Of a DNA stretch of 64,000 nt, positions 31,494-42,290 are shown in pieces (within the stretch, counting starts at the first letter, position 1; each line of letters starts with the position of its first letter). The position numbers were made by a program, and so were the translations under genes. The notes beneath the pieces are model-generated. The model did not search any database, was not told where the DNA came from, and saw only the letters and a list, made by a program, of their open reading frames with translations. Source of the DNA: Cladosporium halotolerans (lineage: Eukaryota); NCBI RefSeq assembly GCF_011745625.1, contig NW_027191458.1:682001-746000 (forward strand), in the 5' to 3' direction.

Positions 31494-32523
31494 TTACTCG
31501 TCCTGAGGATACAGGTGGTTGGCGAGAAGTTTGTTCATGGTGAACATGTGCACCTTGTCTTGCTTGAAGACCGCGTGCATCGCGTCATCGCAACGAATCT
31601 GTCGCTTGTCGTTGGGATCCTGTAGGTCGCGCTCTTTGACATAAGCCCAGATTTGCTTCACGGTCTGTGGTCGTGAGAGAGCCGGTTGGCCGAGCATCGC
31701 TGCCAGCGGCTCGGAGAGATTCATGAGTTTCTGCCTCGGTGTTAGTTCCGTCAAGATGCCAGAGGATGTGAAAGGACAGCCTTACGTGGAACCCTCCTTT
31801 CTTCTCCTTTTCCGGCTTCTCTTCCCCACTCGCAAGATCACTGTCATCGGCAGCACTGATCTTGGTCGAGCTCTTCTTCTTAGGCTTCTTGGCTTGCTTG
31901 GCGGCCGGCTTCTTCTTTGTCGCTCCTCCGCCGCGTGTTGCCCGTGTCTGACTGTTGATCTCCGCCTGCAGATTCCGCGCAAATGCCTCATCGTCCTCTG
32001 CTTCAGGCTTCGTCTTCTTCTTTACCTTCTTGGGAGGAGGTGAATCGACCACGTCGCTCAAGTCGCTCTCGTCGCCTCCGCTGCCCGCCTTCCTCTTTTT
32101 GGGTGATGTCTCCTCGTCATCGTCATGTGCTGCGCCGTTCGCTGTGGGCGCGGGTTCCGGCGCGGCCGTGGCTTGTTCGTTCTGGACTTTGTCGAAGCGC
32201 TCCATGATCAACTCTTTGATCGCATCCTTGAAATGTGTTAGCAAGGCCTTCCCATGTGTGCCATTGGCGACAGCCGAACCTTTTGCGGTGTGAGATCGTA
32301 GTCCACGCGCTCTTGCAAGCCATTGCGAATGCGCTTCGCGGAGATAGTCTCCAGGTCGGACTTTGCGAGGATCTCGTCGATGATGGCAGCATAGGAAGCG
32401 CGCTGCTCAGCAGGGACTTGTCGAGGGTCATCAGCTTTGGTTCGCGAAAAGATAGTGTGTGCACAAGAGACGCGCGATGTGGCAGGCGCGACGTCTCGGA
32501 GGCAACTCACGCTCGGAGGCCAT
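31494..32523 (-). CDS. DEK-C plus SWIB/MDM2 domain protein (Uaf30/Tri1/Spp27-like)
   Basis: IDEILAKSDLETISAKRIR, KGGFHK, LSRPQTVKQIWAYVKERDLQDPNDKRQIRCDD; introns 32417-32510, 32227-32279, about 31730-31785. Confidence 0.9.
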
Positions 32524-33216
32524 GGTGCAGCTGATGTGCGATAGGCAAAATGAGAGATTGGTGATAGGATTGGAGTGAATACTCAGGCGGAGGAAGGGTC
32601 TAAGAGCCCTTTGCCTTAGTTGCGGCGCTCAATGGGCTTTTCGCGCGCGCGAACCGTCTGTTGCAGTCCGCGGTATGATGTACGTCCGAGCGCGGGTGAA
32701 GATGCCGAGCTGGACTTGAGCGAGACGGTTCAGATGCGACAGCTGATGTGGGCGGCGTGTGGCTGAACAATACACTCGTGACGTAGTGTTGGGTTTGCTT
32801 GTGGGTGTTGATCACCAGTCACGGGCAGGTGTTTCGTCAACGCATGTGCAGGCGAGTCGCTGGCGCAGCACGTGCGATCGCCTCACGAGCCGCCCGGTAT
32901 AAGGTAGACGGCCAGCCGCCAGCTCGGGGCCTCAGCGGCCCAGGCGACCGCGGGCCATCCCGATGTCACCCGCCCGCCTGCCCGTCTCTCCCGACCCCGC
33001 ACGCTTCCTCTCGCTTCTTGGCCGTGGAAGCCTTGTCGCCTGAGGCTCTCCATCAATCAGGCCCCACCGCAAAATTGGCACACGCTCCAACGCACAGCGA
33101 GCCAACGGCGCCGGTGTGACCGCGAGAAGATTGAGGAGATTCCGGACCACCACCACCGTCGCAGCCAACCCACGCCCACAAATCTCGTCTACGCGCCGAC
33201 GAGACTCACACACAAA

Positions 33217-35560
33217 ATGGCGCCCTCATTCGAAAACCTCGACCCCGAGCAGGCCGAGTACGACGGCGAGGAGGAAATTGACTTCTCTGGTATGCGGATG
33301 ACAACCCGTGCGACGGATGCGCGGCGAAACAGCGATGCTGACAACCTGCAGATCTCCGCGAACAGTATGAGGTCCGCATGGAGGAGGGTCTCGACACCTT
33401 CGTGGTGATCGATGGCCTGCCTAAGGTCCCCGAAGAGAGCAGGCCCAAGCTCATCAAGTTCTTGTTGCGCAAGCTCACCACCGCCGGCAAGACCAAGGAG
33501 GACAACGTCTTCATGCCCATGGACGAGGCTACCGGCCAGACTGGAGGATACGCTTTCGTCGAATATGAGACTTCCGCCCAGGCTGTCGCCGCAGTCAAGG
33601 CCCTGAACGGAACCCCTCTCGACAAGAAGCACACGATCGCCGTCAACAAGCTCACCGACATCGAGCGCTACGGCAGGGAGGGTCGCATCGACGAGGACTA
33701 CAAGGAGCCGGAGATTGCGCCTTTCGAGGAGAAGGAGCACTTGCGCTGGTGGCTCGGTGATCACGAAGGCAGGGACCAGTTCGTCATGTACCGCGGTGAG
33801 AACGTTGGCGTTTTCTGGAACGAGAAGGAGGACCAGCCGGATATGGTTGTGGACAGGCAGGCTTGGACCGAGTCTTTCGTTCAGTGGTCGCCCAAGGGAA
33901 CATACCTCACATCTATGCACTCCCAGGGTGTACAACTCTGGGGCGGCCCCAACTGGTCAAGACAGAAGCGTTTCATGCACCCCGGCGTCAACCTTGTCGA
34001 CTTCTCGCCCAACGAGCGCTACCTCACTACCTGGTCTCACCGCCCGATGCAGATCGACGAGGGCCACCCCATTCTCGGCGTAGAGGAGGATGGCAAGAAC
34101 TACATCATCTGGGACATCGCTACAGGCAAGCCTATCCGTTCTTTCGTCACTCTCGACCTCCCCGGCCCTGCTACGGACGCTGAGGGCCAGCCGATCAAGA
34201 AGAAGCTGCAGTGGCCCGCTTTCAAGTGGTCTGCTGACTCCAAGTACGTTGCGCGCATGAACCCTGGCCAGGGTGTGAGCGTATACGAGCTTCCTCGCAT
34301 GAACCTTATGGACAAGACCAGCATTAAGATTGAGGGCATTGTGGACTTCGAGTGGTGCCCCGCTACCCCTCAGAGGGCTGATGTCAAGACCTACGAGCAG
34401 CTCTTCTGCTACTGGACACCCGAGATGGGCAGCAACCCGGCCAAGGTCGGTCTCATGGCCGTCCCCACCAAGGAGGTCGTTCGTACTAGGAACCTTTTCA
34501 ACGTCTCCGACGCCAAGCTTCACTGGCAATCCAACTCCGACTTCCTTTGCGTTAAGGTCGACAGACACAGCAAGAGCAAGAAGAGTCTGGCAACGAACCT
34601 CGAGATCTTCCGCGTCAAGGAGAAGGGCGTGCCCGTCGAAGTCATCGACACCATTAAGGACACCGTCATCAACTTTGCCTGGGAGCCCAAGGGCGACCGT
34701 TTCGTCCTCATCACCGCTGGCGAGGTCCCTGCCGGATCCGCCGTGCCCCCCAAGACTTCCGTCAGCTTCTTCTGCCCCGAAAAGGTGAAGGGTAATGGCG
34801 TTGGTAACTTCAAGCTTATCCGCACCGTCGACAAGAAGAACAACAACGCCATCCACTGGTCGCCCAACGGCCGCTTCGTCATCGTCGCGACCGTCCTCAG
34901 CCAGCAGTCCTACGACCTCGATTTCTACGACTTCGACTTCGAGGGCGACAAAGACGAGAAGGACAAGGACCTGACCGCCAACCTCCAACTCCTCACCTCC
35001 GCCGACCACTACGGTGTGACCGACATTGAGTGGGACCCCTCGGGCCGCTTCGTCGCTACCAGCGCCAGTGTCTGGAAGCACAGAGTAAGCGTTTCTCACC
35101 CACCAAACTCAACCCAAAATGACCGCCCCGCTAAGATAACCCCTCACAGATGGAAAACGGCTACCACCTCTACTCCTTCTCCGGCCAGCTGCTGCGCGAG
35201 GAGCCGATCGAGCAGTTCAAGCAGTTCGTCTGGCGCCCGCGGCCCGAGCGCCTGCTGTCCAAGGAGGAGATGAAGACGGTGCGCAAGAACCTGCGCGAGT
35301 ACTCGCGCCAGTTCGAGGAGGCCGACGTCGCCAAGCGCAGCTCCGCCGACAAGGCCGTCGTCGAGGAGCGCCGCCGCAAGCTCAACGAGTGGCTCGCCTA
35401 CCGCGAGCGCACCGTCGAGGACCTGCTCGAGGACCGCCGCGATCTCGGCCTGCCCGAGGTCAGCGAGGAGCGCGCCGCGCTGCAGGTCGACGACGAGGGC
35501 CAGGTCGTCGAGGAGATTTTCGAGGAGATTCTGGAGGAGAACGAGGAGGTTATCGATTAG
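33217..35560 (+). CDS. PRT1: Translation initiation factor eIF3 subunit b
   Basis: [50 protein letters not shown]; introns 33290-33351, 35085-35149. Confidence 0.97.
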
Positions 35561-36177
35561 ATTTTTAGTGGATGAAGAAAAAGGAAAAGCTTTTTTTTTG
35601 TGACAAGCGGACGCGAGTTTTCTTGTGCCGGCTTGCCCGCACCCGGATGCATGGCGTTTATGTTTGTCTGCGCGGAATGCAACGGTGGGCTTTTGGGGCG
35701 AGGTGGACACGATGCATGAGGTAGTGCGGTTTTCTCCAGAGTGGCTTTTCGCATGCGGAGGGAAAACGTACAGGATGGATGGATAGAGATGCCGGTATGA
35801 AATCTTCGTTTTTATGTATTCATTGTGCGTGCTCGCTCTTTGACAGCAAAAAAGCTGCCCTGAACGTGAGGTCCATTACCGCTGCGGTGATAATTCGATA
35901 CAAGCCTATCTCCCTGCGCCTGGATAAGAGTGCTGTTTCCCTGCCGGATCCTCTACAAGACAAAAGAGAAGTACGCTCTGCGCCACAATGCCCAACGGCA
36001 TCTCAAACAACCGTCGATCAGGTCCAAAACGGCGGCGGCAGCGATGCTCAAGCAGCCACTTCGCGCCATGCATTACAAAGTTGACGAAACTCCACGCTCC
36101 CCGAACAAGGCTCACACTTCCCAACTCCCGATCCCTTCCAACATCGAAGCGAGGCCCCCCTAGCCCCCAACCAACCT

Positions 36178-38373
36178 TTACCTTCGACACCTCAACGCAA
36201 TCTCATGCTCGACCGCGCGCCTCGTCAAATCGACGAACCCCAACTTCGGCCCCGTCCCAAAGCCCGCCACGTTGTTCGTCGCGCACACGCCCTCGGCCCA
36301 GCGCGCGAACTCCGGCGCCAGGTTGCGCAGGAACAGAAAGCAGAGCATCTCCTCCGAGAAAATGGGCTGCGCGGGCGGGAGTTTGGATGAAGGATGCGTG
36401 GAGTTGAGTGTAGAGAAGGGCATGGGGCCGGGAGCGGCGGCGCCTGATGCGTTATTGGTGTTGGAGGAGGACGAGGCGGTCCCGTGCTGCGAGCGCCAGT
36501 GGTGGCTGAGGCGGTTGAACGCCATGTAAGCGTTCTCGAGGCGGACGATGTAGTCCTTGAGGTCCGCGCTGTTGGCGTGCGAGATGTCGTGCAGCTCCAT
36601 GTAGAGCTTGAAGCCGGTGTCGGAGCCCTGGGGCAGGCAGACGTCTTCGAGGACGGACCAGATGTCGGCGGCGTTCTTGATGTGCTGGACGCGGTTGCGG
36701 AAGGTCGGGGCCAGGGTGCCCCACAGTACGCCGGAGAGGGCGGCGTTGCGGCGGTTGAAGATGGCGAGCTTTTTGATGTACTCGTTCCAGTCTTCGACTT
36801 TGCAGTCGATGGGCGGCGGGGTGGGTTCGGTCTTGGTGCCAATGAGGACTTCGAAGGTGTTTTCTTTCATACACGCTTCGGTCATTAGGTCGCGGTAGGT
36901 GGGCCAGTCGCTTGCGGATTGCAGGAGGGGGACGATCTTGTATGACTCGCCGCTGCCGCATGAGCTTGCAGCGAGGATTTCGACTGCAGAGCTTTGAAGG
37001 TCGAGTTTGACGGGCGTCACATGTTGTGTCTGGAATGCTTGGAGGTTTGCGAGGATCTCTTCCGCGCGCTGCGCATTTTGCTGGAACTGCGACACCGTGC
37101 CACGGTTACGGTTGCGTTGCGCTGACTGGGGTCCTTGTTGGTCAAGGCTTAGGGGATCCTCGTCGACCTGCATCATTTCCGTCTCTGTCGCGCCGTCTAC
37201 TCCGGGCACTGAAGGCTGTTCGTCTTCTTGCGGGCGGTCATATTCGCAGTCGATCCCATTTTGAGAACACAAAGAGCATGACGGCCGTGAATTGTCGCAC
37301 TTGGTCTTCTTGGACCTACAATAGTTACATGGACGGCCGCTAGACGAAGCCGTATCGCCTTTGATCAGACAAGTGCCAAACTTCTTGTACTTCAGCTTCA
37401 TGTTGGCCACGTCGGTGCGAGTGAAGAGTCCATGAGGATTGGTCCTTTCCAAGAATTGCAAGACCTGCGCTGTAGGCGTTCCGATCGCAAATAGACCGTC
37501 AACGGCCTGCTCAATTCCTCCAGCGCGAGCCCTACGTCTGTGTCCGACCAAATTCAAAGCCTCCAGAGGACCGTGGTTGTGATGTGTCTTTCTATGGCGG
37601 ACCTGCCACTCACCTTCGGGATTGTTCGGATCGACAGCGACAACAGCCAGACTCATCGGACAGTTCATGCGCTGACTTTTGCGATTATGGCGGATGCGAG
37701 TTTGGTCGGTCAGCTTGCCTGTGTTGGCAGCCTTGCCGTGCTTGCTGCAATGCATATAGCGCTTATACAATACTCCTCGCGCGTTCTTCTTAGAAGCACG
37801 GCGCACGACTTCATAGCCATGCTCTAAGGACCACGAATGAACTGCTTCTTCCAAAGCAGCTTGGTTGGGATATGTTGCTTCTGGTGGAGGCGGGAGGTGA
37901 AATACAGGTTCGTTGCCATCGTGTCCGTCCGGCTGCACGGCATCGCCGTCGTCATCATCCTCTTCGGCATCTCGTCTCACAATGTTGCTCAGGTCGGCAT
38001 ACTGCGACAAGGAAGGTGATTGTGGATCGGGTGGAGGCGCGCCTGGCCCATTCTGACCAGGCGAGGGCGACGCGACAGGCGGCTGGGCATACTGATGGGA
38101 CTGTACGGAAGCATGGAGGGCGGACTGCGGCGATTCTTGCTGAGGTTGCGCAGCAGGTACCGGCGAGTAGTACGGCTGCTGATGCTGGCCAGCGGGAACA
38201 GCAGGGTATGGCAGCGGTTGTTGATACGCGCCAGGCGCAAACGCGTTTGGCGGGAAGTGGCCGTTCACGTTGACGTTGACAGCATCCTGCGGAGCATATT
38301 GCACGTCTGCAGAGAGGTTAGAGAAAGACAACGTCGACAGACGCAGGGACGTTCGCTCACATTGGGGATTCAT
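36178..38373 (-). CDS. Chimeric protein: FAR1/MULE DNA-binding module + Zn2Cys6 cluster + copia Gag-like domain
   Basis: HGYEVVRRASK..CSKHG..SQRMNCP..HNH; CNYCRSKKTKCDNSRPSCSLCSQNGIDC; PLLQSASDWPTY..AADIWSVLE..LKDYIVRLE..FLRNLAPEF; likely in-frame intron 38307-38360. Confidence 0.8.
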   Translation of the reverse strand: MNPQCERTSLRLSTLSFSNLSADVQYAPQDAVNVNVNGHFPPNAFAPGAYQQPLPYPAVPAGQHQQPYYSPVPAAQPQQESPQSALHASVQSHQYAQPPVASPSPGQNGPGAPPPDPQSPSLSQYADLSNIVRRDAEEDDDDGDAVQPDGHDGNEPVFHLPPPPEATYPNQAALEEAVHSWSLEHGYEVVRRASKKNARGVLYKRYMHCSKHGKAANTGKLTDQTRIRHNRKSQRMNCPMSLAVVAVDPNNPEGEWQVRHRKTHHNHGPLEALNLVGHRRRARAGGIEQAVDGLFAIGTPTAQVLQFLERTNPHGLFTRTDVANMKLKYKKFGTCLIKGDTASSSGRPCNYCRSKKTKCDNSRPSCSLCSQNGIDCEYDRPQEDEQPSVPGVDGATETEMMQVDEDPLSLDQQGPQSAQRNRNRGTVSQFQQNAQRAEEILANLQAFQTQHVTPVKLDLQSSAVEILAASSCGSGESYKIVPLLQSASDWPTYRDLMTEACMKENTFEVLIGTKTEPTPPPIDCKVEDWNEYIKKLAIFNRRNAALSGVLWGTLAPTFRNRVQHIKNAADIWSVLEDVCLPQGSDTGFKLYMELHDISHANSADLKDYIVRLENAYMAFNRLSHHWRSQHGTASSSSNTNNASGAAAPGPMPFSTLNSTHPSSKLPPAQPIFSEEMLCFLFLRNLAPEFARWAEGVCATNNVAGFGTGPKLGFVDLTRRAVEHEIALRCRR

Positions 38374-39016
38374 GGCAGGTCGGTGGGGTGGCCGCCGCCG
38401 GTGGGTGCTCGTTACGGGCAGCGATGCTTGTGCTTAGTAGATGGAGGATGCGACGCGGTGTGCTGCCTCGAATGTTTGGAAGACGCGCGACGCCTGCCTT
38501 TTGCGGTGCCGGCTGGAAAGACACCACCCAAGCTAATAATAAGCCGCGTCTTGCCTCTGCCGCAGCACTACAGCATTACAGTATTCACTTCAATTAAGAT
38601 GCGTACGCATTTGAAGAGTAAATCTATGTCTCTCGATGACGCTCTAGGAATCTTGAACTTTATGGCTTGACCTTAAAGCAACGCGGAGTTACGCTCATCA
38701 AAGCGTACTGCCTGCTCACTCTCGCGATTTGCTTACCACACCTCGCGCAAAGCAAAAATCCTGTAACAACGTAAATGCACTGTCCGTGAGTTACCAGCTC
38801 GAGCAACGCGCTTTCTCACTTTATCTCAACGCATCGGTGGTCCATTGTTGCCTTGGAAGACAGCGCCCTGGGTACTCCACATCAAGAATGTCACTCCACG
38901 CTGTGCCTCGGTAGATCGCCTGTGATCCCTCCTGGCCCTCATATCGTAGCATACCAGCGATATCTAGATGCTCATCTCCGTACCTACTTGTCAGACCTCA
39001 TAACAATCTACCAACA

Positions 39017-39530
39017 ATGGCCCAACGAGCACTCAAAGCCACCTGCCTCTGCAAAGGCGTGCAATTCACACTGTCCGGCCAGGACAAGGGCGCGGTGCTG
39101 TGCCACTGCAGCAACTGCAAGAGCTTTACGGGCTCGTCCTTCGCCCACAATTACCGCTTCATGAAAGCCAAGGTCGAGTACCAGAAGGGCGAGGACCTGG
39201 TGAAGTCGTACAAAGACGACAATACGAAGTCGGGCAAGGTGCTGGAGAGATTCTTTTGCGGGCGATGTGTAAGTCTGCCGTGTGGAGTGTTCGAGTCGAT
39301 GTCGATGGCAAAAGTCTTGGAGAGATTCTAGAGCGATGAGGTGCTGACAAGACGGATAATGACAGGGCTCATCGCTCATGAACAAGCCTCAAGCGATCCC
39401 CGGGTTGATCGTAGCCTGCACCGGTGCGATCCAGAGTGGCGAGGACCCATTGCATCCAAAGTTCGAGCTGTTCGAGGAGGACAGACGGCCCTGGTTGGGA
39501 AGTATTGTCAAGGGCGCAGCGAAGTTGTAA
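39017..39530 (+). CDS. GFA/CENP-V (Mss4-like) zinc protein
   Basis: ATCLCKGV, CHCSNCK, RFFCGRC|GSSL; intron 39269-39365; ends GAAKL. Confidence 0.88.
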
Positions 39531-39814
39531 ATAACACATGTATGAGACCACCTTGATGGCCGGAGCAAGGGCCGCGAGCAAAACCCGTCACCTGCCACGC
39601 TTCGTATTGTTCTTCAAGCACAGCCAGCCCTCATTCCACCACCTCCACCAAACAAGCACCCGCGAGCGCCGCGCCCCACCTCCCCGCGCCTCCGCCAGCA
39701 ACTTTCTCCAAACCACCCTGTCTCTCTCAAACATACAAATCACATCCCCACCACCTCTCCAACCTCACGACAACCACCACCCACCAAAAACCCCACCACA
39801 CCACGACATCCAAA

Positions 39815-40762
39815 ATGTCCGACCCCGACACAGAATCCTACTCCACCTCCCCCGCCTGGTCCGACGTGACCCCCCTCCCCACGAACCCCGGCGGCCCCAA
39901 CCCGCTCGCCGCAATCGCCTATGCGCCCGCCTACGAAGAAGCAATGTCCTACCTGCGCGCGCTCATGGCGGCGAACGAACACTCGACGCGCGCCCTCGAG
40001 CTGACCGAAGACGTCATCGAGCAGAACCCCGCGCACTACACCGTGTGGCTGTACCGCGCCAGCGTGCTGTTCGGGATCGACGCCGACCTGCGCGCGGAGC
40101 TGGAGTGGGTGAGCGACGTCGCGCGCGCGCACCAGAAGAACTACCAGATCTGGAACCACCGGATGATGATTGTTGAGAAGCTGGGGAGCCCCGAGGGGGA
40201 GCGGGAGTTTGTGGAGGAGATGTTTGCGCTGGACGGCAAGAACTACCATGTTTGGAGCTACAGGCAGTGGCTCGTGAGGCGGTTTGGGCTGTGGGGGGAG
40301 CGCGAGAGGGGGTTTGTGGAGGGGATGGTGGAGCGGGATGTACGGAACAACAGTGCTTGGAACTATAGGTGGTTTTTGGTGAATGGACGGGAGAGCGAGG
40401 GGGTGCCGGGTGTGAAGGATGAGGGAGTGAAGAGGGAGGAGGTGGAGTATGCGGCGAGCGCGGTTGCGAAGGCGCCGCAGAATCCGAGCCCGTGGAATTA
40501 TTTGAGGGGCGTGGTGAGGGCGAGTGGGGGCGGGTTGGGTGAGTTGAAGGGACTGGCGAGCGAGTATGCGGATTTGACGAGGCCGGGCGGGGTGAGGTCG
40601 AGCCATGCGTTGGATTTGTTGGCGGATATTCTGGCTGATGAGGATAAGAACAAGGCTGGGGAGGCGCTGGATGCGCTTGCGAGCACGTACGACCCGATTC
40701 GCAAGAATTACTGGGAGTACAGGAAAGGGCTGCTGGGGTTACCGGCTGCTTCTGTGGCGTAG
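39815..40762 (+). CDS. RAM2: Farnesyl/geranylgeranyltransferase type I alpha subunit
   Basis: PPTA repeats NPAHYTVWLYR, KNYQIWNHR, KNYHVWSYR, RNNSAWNYR; DPIRKNYW. Confidence 0.95.
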   Translation: MSDPDTESYSTSPAWSDVTPLPTNPGGPNPLAAIAYAPAYEEAMSYLRALMAANEHSTRALELTEDVIEQNPAHYTVWLYRASVLFGIDADLRAELEWVSDVARAHQKNYQIWNHRMMIVEKLGSPEGEREFVEEMFALDGKNYHVWSYRQWLVRRFGLWGERERGFVEGMVERDVRNNSAWNYRWFLVNGRESEGVPGVKDEGVKREEVEYAASAVAKAPQNPSPWNYLRGVVRASGGGLGELKGLASEYADLTRPGGVRSSHALDLLADILADEDKNKAGEALDALASTYDPIRKNYWEYRKGLLGLPAASVA

Positions 40763-40980
40763 GGATGGTAGGATAATGTTTTGTTTTCGGAGCTGAACGG
40801 CAAGACCATGGCATGATAGCTTTGAGCGGTGCATAAGGATCACGAGATACCCTTTGGCATATTATTCATTTCACTTCCCATTTCCCTGATTGAAACGCTA
40901 ACGCTAAACCCAAAACCAGAATAACTCCAATCATCTATGTTCGTTGAAAACGCCCTGACCATCCCAAAACCGATGAGATA

Positions 40981-42290
40981 TCAAACACGAATAGGCATAA
41001 AACTCCCCATACACCCAACATCCATCGGTACGCCACAAGTCGGCATGTCCAGGCCAGTCTTCGCACTGGGCACCTCATTGTTGGCAGCAACAATCCTCTC
41101 ATCAAGGTACCCGTACTCCTGCCTCCAGCCCTCAACCATGGCAGTGGTGACGTTCGAGCCGCCACAAACGATGATGACGACTTTCTCATCCGGCCTGACT
41201 CTGCGGCCGAGCGCCTTGCTCAACCGACCGCCGTAGCACAAAGCAAGATTGACGCCGCAAGCCAGCTCGACGAGCGCCTTCTCGTCGTCCGCGAAGCGCC
41301 AGCAGCCCATCGCGGCTTCGGCGTCGGACAGCACGGCGCTCTTGAGCAGGCCGGCGGCCTCGTAGCGCTGCGAGAGCTCGAAGCAGCGGTCTGCGACTTT
41401 GACGGCGCCGAGAGACGTGGCCTGGGAGGAGATGCCGGGGAGAGCGGTGAGTTCGCCGTTCTTCAAGCTCTCGCTCAGCGAGTCCGCGCCCTCCGTCTCG
41501 ACGGCGAGCACCTGCGTGTCGCGCCACCCGGCCTCGGCCATGCCCTGCAGCATGCCGATGAGCAAGCCGCCGCCGCCGACCGAGCACGCCATGACGTCCG
41601 CCTGCCCGTGGCCCTGCTCGCCCATCTGGCGCGCAACCTCCTCGAAGACAGTCTGGTTGCCGCGCCAGACGTTCTCGTGGTCGAACGGCGGGACGTAGAC
41701 GGCCTCCTCGCCGCGCGCCTGCGCGTCGGGCATCACGACGTCCTGCAGGTGCGCGATGGCCTCCTTGAGGCTCTTGCCCTCTTGGATGACCTGCGTGGCG
41801 CCCGCGGCGCGGATCTTGGCGATCATCATGGGCTTGGTGGACTGGGGGACGACGACGGTGGAGGGGCGGCCGAGGGATTTGGCGGCGAAGACGCAGGCCA
41901 GGCCCGCGTTGCCGCCGGACGAGGCGTAGAAGTGGACGGCGTCTGGGTTGGATGCGCGCGAGAGGGCGACTTGACAGTAGTGGCCGATGCCGCGGCTCTT
42001 GAAGGAGCCCGAGGGCTGCAGCGTCTCGAGCTTGAGGAAGATTCTGCTTCTCCAATTTAGCAATCCGTATCTTGGGGAGACCAGCCCTGCGGAGAGGGAT
42101 GGCTCGGGTGGGGTTTGGGGGATAGGGAAGGTGGGCTTCCGTACCATCCTGCTGCCTCAGAGAGGTTGGCGGACTCGACCAGGGGAGTCTCGCGCCATGG
42201 CTTCTTCTCGGTGGGCTTCATGGCCGGCTGCTTGACAGCGGGCGCTCTGCCGTTGGTGAGAGGAGCGTAGACGGAAGCGTCTGCGGTCAT
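40981..42290 (-). CDS. L-serine/L-threonine dehydratase (Cha1-like)
   Basis: KKPWRETPL..AAGC|RIFLKLETLQPSGSFKSRG, SSGGNAG, SVGGGGL, IVCGGSN; intron 42047-42144. Confidence 0.92.

What the first reader, a model, noticed from the sequence alone, without database searches (positions are those of the whole stretch)
36200..36940. Domesticated Gag capsid-like domain without a zinc knuckle
Seen: IVPLLQSASDWPTYRDLM..FEVLIGTKTEP, TLAPTFRNRVQHIKNAADIWSVLE, LYMELHDI..LKDYIVRLE and EEMLCFLFLRNLAPEF follow the copia Gag helix order. A Ser/Asn low-complexity loop is inserted, the frame ends with no CCHC knuckle or protease, and codons mostly end in C/G with no stops. Established: exapted Gag proteins act as capsids (Arc, PEG10) or restriction factors (Fv1, Ty1 p22). 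Inference: an oligomerisation module, or a decoy/sensor that links retrotransposon Gag to transcription.
Basis: inference. Interest (0 to 1): 0.7.

Follow-up and report, generated by a model that had tools for sequence, protein, structure and literature searches.

The report
Fungal transcription factor carrying retrotransposon capsid
A conserved, single-copy fungal gene joins two DNA-binding modules (one of a type that comes from DNA transposons) to a complete capsid domain taken from a copia retrotransposon, which suggests a virus-like shell protein was reused as the interaction module of a transcription factor, though what it binds is untested.

Summary
Observation confirmed. 36181-37008 (-) is the C-terminal third of one spliced host gene (ATG 38373, one 54-nt intron, 713 aa): FAR1/WRKY-GCM1 domain, Zn2Cys6 cluster, then a whole copia capsid (NTD+CTD), stopping before the knuckle. 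The best structural match is the Drosophila Copia capsid (whole domain Z 12.5; NTD alone Z 10.8, rmsd 2.0 over 89 residues). The nearest Gags found are an ascomycete copia lineage with in-frame protease (hhalign 99.85%, 234 columns). All 98 proteins retrieved with the FAR1 region carry the capsid domain (97 whole) and none has knuckle or protease motifs. Named ones span Cladosporium, Teratosphaeriaceae, Mycosphaerellaceae, Polychaeton and Neophaeotheca. dN/dS is 0.11-0.19, the tree follows host families, there is one copy in the genome, and a spliced contig covers the whole fusion. It is not among the 14 co-opted gag genes of Wang & Han 2021, and I found no description. Domestication is near certain (~0.95). 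Function is inferred: most likely a SCAN-like self-association/partner-binding module of a transcription factor (0.5). A sensor or decoy for retrotransposon Gag is less likely (0.15): the gene is old, purifying-selected and far from the genome's sampled copia elements.

The parts
38361..38373 (-). Exon 1 (ATG, MNPQ); start codon inferred
   Evidence: Sequence; matches N-termini of P0003 and P0021; contig X1 reaches 38452
38307..38360 (-). 54-nt GT..AG spliceosomal intron, in frame, with CTAAC branch motif
   Evidence: Sequence; skipped in contigs of runs X1 (depth 72.8) and X12 (depth 5)
37912..38304 (-). Pro/Gln-rich then acidic, poorly conserved N-terminal region (candidate activation region, inference)
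   Evidence: 0 of 131 positions conserved at 90% in 98 rows
37564..37911 (-). FAR1 / WRKY-GCM1 DNA-binding domain, C-x28-C-x26-H-x-H ligands
   Evidence: PF03101 31.5 bits, over cut-off 28.1; ligands invariant in 18 rows; dN/dS 0.04
37369..37563 (-). Conserved helical region after the FAR1 domain, as follows this domain in MULE-derived proteins (assignment partly recalled)
   Evidence: 32 of 65 positions conserved at 90%; dN/dS 0.04; Atlas look-alikes for FAR1+helical region carry FAR1/AFT/MULE/HTH_FAR1 (a lead only)
37246..37329 (-). Zn(II)2Cys6 binuclear cluster
   Evidence: PF00172 E 1.6e-9; pattern in 97 of 98 homologs
37009..37080 (-). Conserved amphipathic helix just before the capsid domain; not matched in the Gag relatives
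   Evidence: Helix in model; dN/dS 0.05; alignment
36943..37008 (-). Gag-derived N-terminal extension (RL..SS.VE.LA..CG.G) shared with the nearest copia Gag lineage
   Evidence: hhalign and tblastn; 10 of 22 positions conserved at 90%
36634..36942 (-). Copia capsid N-terminal domain (CA-NTD)
   Evidence: 8vvw_A residues 3-91, Z 10.8, rmsd 2.0, 89 aligned; dN/dS 0.11
36490..36633 (-). Capsid C-terminal domain, first two helices
   Evidence: CTD matches PEG10 7lga Z 10.5 rmsd 2.4 and Drt2 9rxy Z 9.8 rmsd 2.7; dN/dS 0.19
36358..36489 (-). Disordered insert inside the CTD, variable in length, absent from the Gag relatives
   Evidence: pLDDT<50; segment length 9-81 residues in 98 rows; gap in donors
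36181..36357 (-). Capsid C-terminal domain, last three helices and the G-x-G-x-G loop; ends the protein
   Evidence: dN/dS 0.16
36178..36180 (-). Stop codon where Gag would continue into knuckle and protease
   Evidence: same position in 12 of 13 loci, the 13th cut by its contig end
35792..36177 (-). 3' untranslated region, convergent with the eIF3b-like gene
   Evidence: X1 contig ends at 35806; one X5 contig has a loose T run before 35792 (weak)

Best explanation
A host transcription factor of Capnodiales s.l., built from three parts. SHOWN: one spliced, single-copy gene encodes a FAR1/WRKY-GCM1 domain, a Zn2Cys6 cluster and a complete copia CA domain (NTD+CTD) cut before the nucleocapsid. 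The CA domain derives from an ascomycete copia lineage and has been inherited vertically with the DNA-binding part under purifying selection (about 0.95). FROM ESTABLISHED KNOWLEDGE: both N-terminal domains are DNA-binding folds, the FAR1 type arose repeatedly from MULE transposases, and copia CA without NC does not assemble capsids alone. INFERRED: the CA domain sits where Zn2Cys6 factors usually carry their regulatory domain. It uses capsid-derived surfaces to make dimers or small oligomers, or to bind one constant partner, so that several DNA-binding heads act together at promoters, as the capsid-derived SCAN domain does in vertebrate zinc-finger factors. The NTD, with host-specific invariant polar residues, is the likeliest working surface.
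For: Fold: the 16 best rows for the whole domain and the 14 best for the NTD alone are retroelement capsids, Copia first. Origin: hhalign 99.85%, 234 columns; 2 relatives carry in-frame Pol_BBD; donor-only profile scores 73-150 bits on 98 of 98 host proteins, at most 3.2 on reversed ones. Obligate fusion: 98 of 98 FAR1-region hits have the domain (97 whole); of the 57 not used to build the profile, 56 whole and 1 partial. Vertical descent: 27 host rows form one side of a 99/99 branch; 29 of 38 supported splits of the FAR1-region tree recur in the Gag tree, shuffles at most 2. dN/dS 0.11-0.19. Spliced contig over the whole gene. No Fungal_trans family among the Pfam hits. Copia-deltaNC fails to assemble alone (PMC11835246 section 9). 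SCAN mediates self-association (PMC3458555 passages).
Against: No functional data exist for any member. SCAN uses only a CTD, whereas here both domains are kept and the CTD is the less conserved half (12 of 104 positions at 90% against 35 of 125 for NTD plus extension), so a plain CTD dimer is not the obvious reading. DNA binding and nuclear location are inferred from domain names only. Foldseek gave no match at E<=0.001 for either model. dS is near saturation, so the ratios are rough. The runs with the spliced contig are not on record as RNA.
Confidence: 0.5

Rival explanations
1. Ligand- or peptide-binding regulatory domain: the CA-NTD no longer self-associates but binds a co-regulator peptide or signal (as the Arc N-lobe binds a stargazin peptide) and so switches the transcription factor on or off.
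For: 10 of the 16 positions that are conserved at 90% in the host family but not in 11 Gag relatives lie in the NTD, most of them polar or charged (N525, K534, E536, E551, R562, R581, E596). An Arc N-lobe/peptide complex (4x3h) is among the structural neighbours, at low Z.
Against: The host-only residues could be internal salt bridges or reflect a shorter divergence time; I could not map them on a surface. Both capsid domains and their linker (P601, G603) are invariant, which fits a preserved two-domain arrangement.
Confidence: 0.2
2. Retrotransposon sensor or restriction factor: the NC-less CA co-assembles with copia Gag, poisoning particles or coupling their presence to a transcriptional response.
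For: Copia-deltaNC co-assembles with wild-type Gag plus RNA (PMC11835246 section 9). Drt2 and p22 restrict Ty1 by lattice poisoning (PMC12530519 abstract). The genome holds copia elements with long open frames.
Against: The 7 Gags sampled from this genome fall far from the domain in the tree and score E>=0.16 against it, while 10 foreign relatives score 1e-12 to 9e-26. Known restriction is subfamily-specific. The gene is old, single-copy and purifying-selected, with its CTD interrupted by a variable insert. Caveat: the family search is a lower bound and missed this gene itself; no site-wise positive-selection test was run.
Confidence: 0.15
3. Cage or lattice former: the protein assembles capsid-like rings, shells or nuclear condensates, with DNA binding replacing RNA as the nucleating scaffold.
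For: Complete NTD and CTD, 184 of 184 Copia CA residues aligned; dArc1 assembles without RNA (stated in PMC11835246 section 9); the DNA-binding domains could supply the scaffold that NC/RNA supplies in Copia (inference).
Against: About 430 residues are fused to the CA N-terminus, a 9-81-residue loop interrupts the CTD, and no knuckle or protease is kept in 98 of 98 homologs.
Confidence: 0.12
4. Not domesticated: a recent copia insertion read through in frame, a still-mobile composite element, or a chance helical resemblance.
For: PF14223 is below its cut-off on this protein; Foldseek E only 0.054; neighbours differ between distant loci.
Against: One copy; no LTR-like repeat; no pol remnant in the window or 13 loci; same architecture across several orders; purifying selection; host-type intron.
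Confidence: 0.03

Closest known systems
SCAN domain of vertebrate C2H2 zinc-finger transcription factors (Crtg7 in Wang & Han 2021)
   Same: Retrotransposon capsid-derived domain fused to the DNA-binding module of a transcription factor; proposed to work likewise, as an association module (PMC3458555 passages).
   Different: SCAN is Ty3/gypsy-derived (PMC8321522), a CTD homolog (reference title) and N-terminal. This one is copia-derived, whole NTD+CTD, C-terminal, fungal, joined to FAR1 + Zn2Cys6, single copy.
Crtg10 (KELP-copia Gag fusion of angiosperms)
   Same: Copia Gag fused C-terminally to a host transcriptional regulator (DEK_C-PC4-Gag; PMC8321522 section 9 and Table S3 part 36).
   Different: Crtg10 keeps the CCHC knuckle in the fused rows seen, its partner is a co-activator, and it is a separate event in plants.
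Crtg12 and Crtg13 (fungal co-opted copia gag genes)
   Same: Old, single-copy, copia-derived, in Dothideomycetes.
   Different: Stand-alone genes of about 650-970 nt in Pleosporales/Mytilinidiales with other neighbours; no FAR1 or Zn2Cys6. Their sequences could not be fetched for a direct comparison.
Drt2 and Ty1 p22/p18 (Saccharomyces restriction factors)
   Same: Ty1/copia CA-derived; CTD fold matches (9rxy Z 9.8, rmsd 2.7).
   Different: The active part is the CTD and it is subfamily-specific (PMC12530519 abstract). Here no close resident element was found, the NTD is retained and better conserved, and the domain is part of a transcription factor.
MULE-derived WRKY-GCM1 factors (Aft1/Rcs1, Aft2, Rbf1, plant FAR1/FHY3)
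   Same: Same DNA-binding family with the insert between the cysteines and a Trp in strand 4 (PMC1702500 passages; W276 invariant).
   Different: Here it is combined with Zn2Cys6 and a retrotransposon capsid; no transposase catalytic domain among the Pfam hits.
Drosophila Copia capsid (PDB 8vvw, 8s41)
   Same: Closest solved fold for both domains.
   Different: About 10% identity; no NC or protease; extra N-terminal extension and CTD insert.

Membership tests
Co-opted LTR-retrotransposon gag gene (criteria of Wang & Han 2021) | Homology to a Gag family | tested here: met
   PF14223 weak here, over cut-off in 4 relatives; Copia CA best fold match; hhalign to protease-linked Gags
Co-opted LTR-retrotransposon gag gene (criteria of Wang & Han 2021) | [quoted passage not shown] | tested here: met
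   Gag-domain tree groups 9 Mycosphaerellaceae-type and 9 mostly Teratosphaeriaceae-type rows at SH-aLRT 99 (family labels recalled). Shared neighbours only within close groups: 6 of 13 loci and L013/L014
Co-opted LTR-retrotransposon gag gene (criteria of Wang & Han 2021) | Natural selection on the gene | tested here: met
   Median pairwise dN/dS 0.11 (NTD), 0.19 and 0.16 (CTD parts), Nei-Gojobori, unsaturated pairs only
Active or recent Ty1/copia element | LTRs, zinc knuckle, protease, integrase, RT; multiple copies | tested here: not met
   No long repeat in 31-43 kb, no pol match, no knuckle or protease motif in 98 of 98, one copy
Crtg12 / Crtg13 | Stand-alone gag ORF in Pleosporales/Mytilinidiales with their flanking genes | tested here: not met
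   Fused architecture, other orders, other neighbours
Crtg12 / Crtg13 | Sequence descent from the same insertion | not testable with these tools
   No fetch by accession; no Pleosporales name among the hits that carried or were looked up for names
SCAN domain | Gypsy-derived CTD only, N-terminal to C2H2 fingers | tested here: not met
   Copia-type NTD+CTD, C-terminal, with FAR1 and Zn2Cys6
SCAN domain (works-like test) | Mediates self- or selective association of the factor | not testable with these tools
   Needs SEC-MALS or pull-down
Drt2/p22-type restriction factor | Close match to a resident target element | tested here: inconclusive
   None of 7 sampled resident Gags is close, but the genome search is a lower bound
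Drt2/p22-type restriction factor | Inhibits retrotransposition | not testable with these tools
   Bench assay
Zn2Cys6 transcription factor | Six-cysteine binuclear cluster | tested here: met
   PF00172 E 1.6e-9; 97 of 98 homologs
Zn2Cys6 transcription factor (Gal4 layout) | C-terminal Fungal_trans regulatory region (recalled as typical) | tested here: not met
   Only Zn_clus, FAR1 and Retrotran_gag_2 at E<=1
WRKY-GCM1 / FAR1 domain, insert-containing family | C..C..HxH ligands, insert between the cysteines, Trp in strand 4 | tested here: met
   C229, C258, H285, H287, W276 invariant in 18 rows; pattern in 90 of 98, several misses being N-terminally short models

The most novel reading that the evidence does not exclude
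A transcription factor assembled from both transposon classes (MULE-type DNA-binding domain, copia capsid) plus a host Zn2Cys6 cluster, in which the intact capsid NTD+CTD still assembles. It would either form capsomer-like rings or lattices on DNA, a virus-shell geometry used for gene regulation, or co-assemble with retrotransposon Gag and turn particle assembly into a transcriptional response across a fungal group that includes many crop pathogens and extremotolerant black yeasts.
Probability: 0.2. Interest if true: 0.87.

Novelty: new variant of a known kind. Interest (0 to 1): 0.62.

Why it matters
A survey of 2,011 eukaryotes counted only 14 deep gag co-options, three of them fungal (PMC8321522). 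This is a further one, spanning several orders that were partly in that survey's genome list, so Pfam-based tallies miss diverged cases. It is a fungal parallel to SCAN and to plant Crtg10, and adds a case where modules of DNA-transposon type and retrotransposon origin meet in one regulator. Named orthologs exist in plant pathogens with sequenced genomes (Fulvia fulva CLAFUR5_04810, Cercospora, Ramularia RCC_04087), and no search found them discussed, so 'what does a whole capsid do inside a transcription factor' can be tested directly. If the domain only dimerises, it is a neat evolutionary case. If it assembles or senses Gag, it is a new regulatory mechanism.

Tried and rejected
Complex prediction of two copies of the 307-residue domain gave no verdict: score 0.34, one unrelated control 0.40; it is no evidence either way. 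Foldseek: no match at E<=0.001 in pdb or viral for the whole domain, none informative for the NTD model. PDB sequence search with alignment A2 hit only Zn2Cys6 proteins. The search for full-length polyproteins of the Gag relatives found nothing, but it covered only 1092-3115 residues and is weak evidence. The viral-contig scan with the Gag relatives found nothing, so I have no DNA context for them; their element status rests on in-frame protease in 2 and a knuckle in 8 of 12. No RNA holder is listed on record; run X7 showed no joints and X5 did not cover the intron. The EAF1 row of the GC3 control was out of frame and was discarded. The 'insert' dN/dS was undefined. No pre-fusion FAR1+Zn2Cys6 relative without the capsid appeared, but that search is word-based and limited to 391-1245 residues. 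Locus tags of six orthologs were in no paper. Earlier-finding look-ups by sequence, place and one word set were empty. Rejected: GC3 as evidence of domestication; identity with Crtg12/13; recent insertion.
Full report
1. Observation. The region is the 3' end of one long minus-strand frame, 36178-38433. Residue numbers below are those of that 751-residue translation, P0001; subtract 38 for the spliced protein. The insert is disordered in the model and is Ser/Pro/Ala-rich rather than Ser/Asn. GC3 of 0.84 equals that of neighbouring host genes (0.81-0.96), so it says nothing special.

2. The gene. The window is fungal; the closest named homolog is from Cladosporium fusiforme (75% over the domain). 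Pfam finds Zn_clus (E 1.6e-9), FAR1 (31.5 bits, over cut-off) and a weak Retrotran_gag_2 (19.8 bits on the domain alone, under the cut-off of 27). I predicted a 54-nt intron at 38307-38360 from the sequence. A 2600-nt contig of run X1 covers 35806-38452 and skips exactly that stretch, with 47 other letters and 7 gaps against the window; X12 shows the same joint at depth 5. These runs are only guessed to be RNA, but X1 and X12 also skip both introns of the neighbouring gene. Of the 4 runs laid, X5 did not cover the intron and X7 showed no joints. So the three domains lie on one spliced transcript of 713 codons. Searches of the own genome with the Gag part and with the FAR1 part each returned only this locus (lower bounds). 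There is no LTR-like repeat in 31-43 kb and no pol match in the window or 13 related loci.

3. The fold. The AlphaFold model of the 260-residue domain (mean pLDDT 83, pTM 0.48) has the Drosophila Copia capsid as best match: 8vvw Z 12.5, 184 of 184 residues aligned, rmsd 13 (I attribute this to the hinge between the domains). Next come PEG10 CTD (Z 10.5, rmsd 2.4), 8s41 (Z 10.0) and Drt2 CTD (Z 9.8, rmsd 2.7). The top 16 rows are all retroelement capsids and the first unrelated row has Z 6.6. The NTD folded alone (pLDDT 92) matches Copia residues 3-91 at Z 10.8, rmsd 2.0 over 89 residues, with the first unrelated row at Z 4.5. Against this, Foldseek ranked 8vvw first but only at E 0.054 and found nothing useful for the NTD model, and the tool warns that Z under about 13 can be common for helical bundles. 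The consistency of the hit lists and the sequence evidence carry the assignment.

4. Origin. A phmmer search of 1.84 billion representatives gave 48 hits. Beyond the host family lies a group of 12 proteins, named ones from Xylaria, Jackrogersella, Sporothrix, Metarhizium and Lasiodiplodia. They share the whole domain, including the N-terminal extension and the G-x-G-x-G loop, but lack the insert and continue C-terminally. 8 of the 12 have a C-x2-H-x8/9-H-x4-C knuckle. P0062 and P0097 (a cluster-mate of P0058) run into a copia Pol_BBD protease domain in frame. Profile comparison gives 99.85% over 234 columns. A profile of these Gags alone scores 73-150 bits on 98 of 98 host proteins and at most 3.2 on reversed controls. 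In a 55-row tree (P0064 left out as too short), the 27 host rows are one side of a 99/99 branch and join these Gags plus 4 further rows at 99/94, apart from 7 Gags of the genome's own copia loci. Caveats: the tree is unrooted, the relatives were found by similarity to the query, and I have no DNA context for them. They are the nearest lineage found, not a proven donor.

5. Domestication. A search with the FAR1 region alone returned 98 proteins from 949 candidates. All 98 carry the capsid domain, 97 whole. Of the 57 that were not in the profile, 56 are whole. 97 have the Zn2Cys6 pattern, none has a knuckle or protease motif behind the domain, and 96 end within 29 residues of it. Named carriers include Cladosporium, Peltaster, Hortaea, Teratosphaeria, Friedmanniomyces, Acrodontium, Fulvia, Cercospora, Ramularia, Pseudocercospora, Sphaerulina, Polychaeton citri and Neophaeotheca triangularis. 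PMC7426231 (passages) places Neophaeotheca among the earliest lineages of Capnodiales s.l. and Polychaeton in Capnodiales s.str., so the fusion probably predates the split of these orders (inference). The Gag-domain tree of 28 named rows groups them largely by family (labels recalled), and 29 of 38 supported splits of the FAR1-region tree recur in the Gag tree, against at most 2 in 200 shuffles (91 of 98 rows). Among 13 metagenome loci, 6 keep three of the window's neighbours upstream (two pairs are near-duplicates), 1 keeps one, 1 of the 6 also has two downstream neighbours, 4 show none within short contigs or flanks, and the 2 most distant show none but share another neighbour with each other. 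Gene names for these neighbours (GFA, RAM2, serine dehydratase, eIF3b, SWIB) are my recalled labels. Pairwise dN/dS on 12 sequences (L004 and L012 dropped as duplicates; saturated pairs dropped): NTD 0.11 (50 of 66 pairs), CTD parts 0.19 (62 of 66) and 0.16 (39 of 66), FAR1 0.04 (20 of 55), linker 0.36 (32 of 66). dS medians are 1.1-1.9, so the values are rough.

6. How it probably works. Shown: architecture, fold, origin, selection, a spliced transcript. From the literature: WRKY-GCM1 domains of this family passed from MULE transposases to fungal regulators at least twice (PMC1702500 passages); Copia CA without NC does not assemble alone but co-assembles with wild-type Gag and RNA (PMC11835246 section 9); Ty1 restriction factors are CTD fragments specific to their subfamily (PMC12530519 abstract); SCAN mediates association of zinc-finger factors (PMC3458555 passages). 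Inferred: the protein is a transcription factor, and the capsid domain is its interaction module. I favour self-association or a constant partner (0.5), because the gene is old, single-copy and uniformly purifying-selected and the resident copia Gags sampled are remote (E>=0.16 against 1e-12 or better for the foreign relatives). Conservation leans to the NTD (35 of 125 positions at 90%, with the extension) over the CTD (12 of 104), and 10 of 16 host-only invariant positions are in the NTD. This differs from SCAN and Drt2 and keeps a peptide- or ligand-binding role open (0.2). A Gag sensor or decoy (0.15) and a lattice former (0.12) remain possible because both capsid domains are intact.

7. 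Known systems and novelty. Wang & Han 2021 (PMC8321522: abstract, passages, sections 9 and 13, two term searches of the supplement and part 36 of 40) list three fungal co-options: Crtg12 and Crtg13, stand-alone in Pleosporales/Mytilinidiales, and Crtg14, fused to PEX14. In the supplement, Hortaea, Baudoinia and Zymoseptoria occur only in the genome list and Cladosporium not at all. The nearest architecture is plant Crtg10 (KELP-copia Gag, knuckle kept). Full-text searches aimed at this gene (listings only) found no description. The library lacks most subscription papers, bioRxiv supplements were not visible, and I read only part of the Wang & Han supplement. The bioRxiv copia tomography paper (10.1101/2024.02.21.581285, passages) was background only. 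Five unchecked notes from this scan report other fungal Gag domestications, two fused to F-box/LRR; if true, such events are commoner than published, which tempers the surprise.

8. Verdict. A real, apparently undescribed, deep co-option of a copia capsid into a FAR1-Zn2Cys6 protein: a new variant of a known kind. Identity about 0.95, mechanism 0.5, interest 0.62.

Noticed in passing
P0052, P0055, P0058-P0060, P0063, P0067, P0076: A lineage of ascomycete copia-type Gags has a C-x2-H-x8/9-H-x4-C knuckle in place of CCHC.
   Followed up: partly
L015 (G000:C620), L018 (G000:C149), L022 (G000:C14), L019 (G000:C689): The genome holds copia elements with long open frames (1359, 1425, 1400 aa); the L019/L022 family has a degenerate knuckle and a CTD loop insertion.
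   Followed up: partly
P0125; P0138 and P0139: A protein labelled Anthostomella pinea nests among Teratosphaeriaceae-type rows, and two labelled Quercus suber belong to this fungal family: probably mislabelled or contaminant records.
   Followed up: partly
P0106 (Friedmanniomyces simplex), P0139, P0099: Longer models: P0106 continues into a HET domain, P0139 has a lipase domain, P0099 has about 280 extra residues; probably merged gene models.
   Followed up: no
P0038: One homolog keeps FAR1 and the capsid domain but lacks the Zn2Cys6 cluster.
   Followed up: no
window 38915-42156 and 31585-35560: The three-gene block upstream and the two genes downstream are each inverted relative to the gene when compared with L003-L012.
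   Followed up: no
L013:3596-5926 and L014:5664-8255: An unnamed upstream gene shared by the two distant loci (26% identity, E 6e-42), with a weak Myb_Rap1 hit in one.
   Followed up: partly
P0065 (Zymoseptoria tritici SMQ52992.1), P0057, P0068, P0056: Further Gag-like proteins that branch next to the knuckle-bearing relatives; whether elements or other domesticated copies is unknown.
   Followed up: no
window 35779-35806: The transcript of this gene and that of the eIF3b-like gene end head-on within about 30 bases.
   Followed up: no
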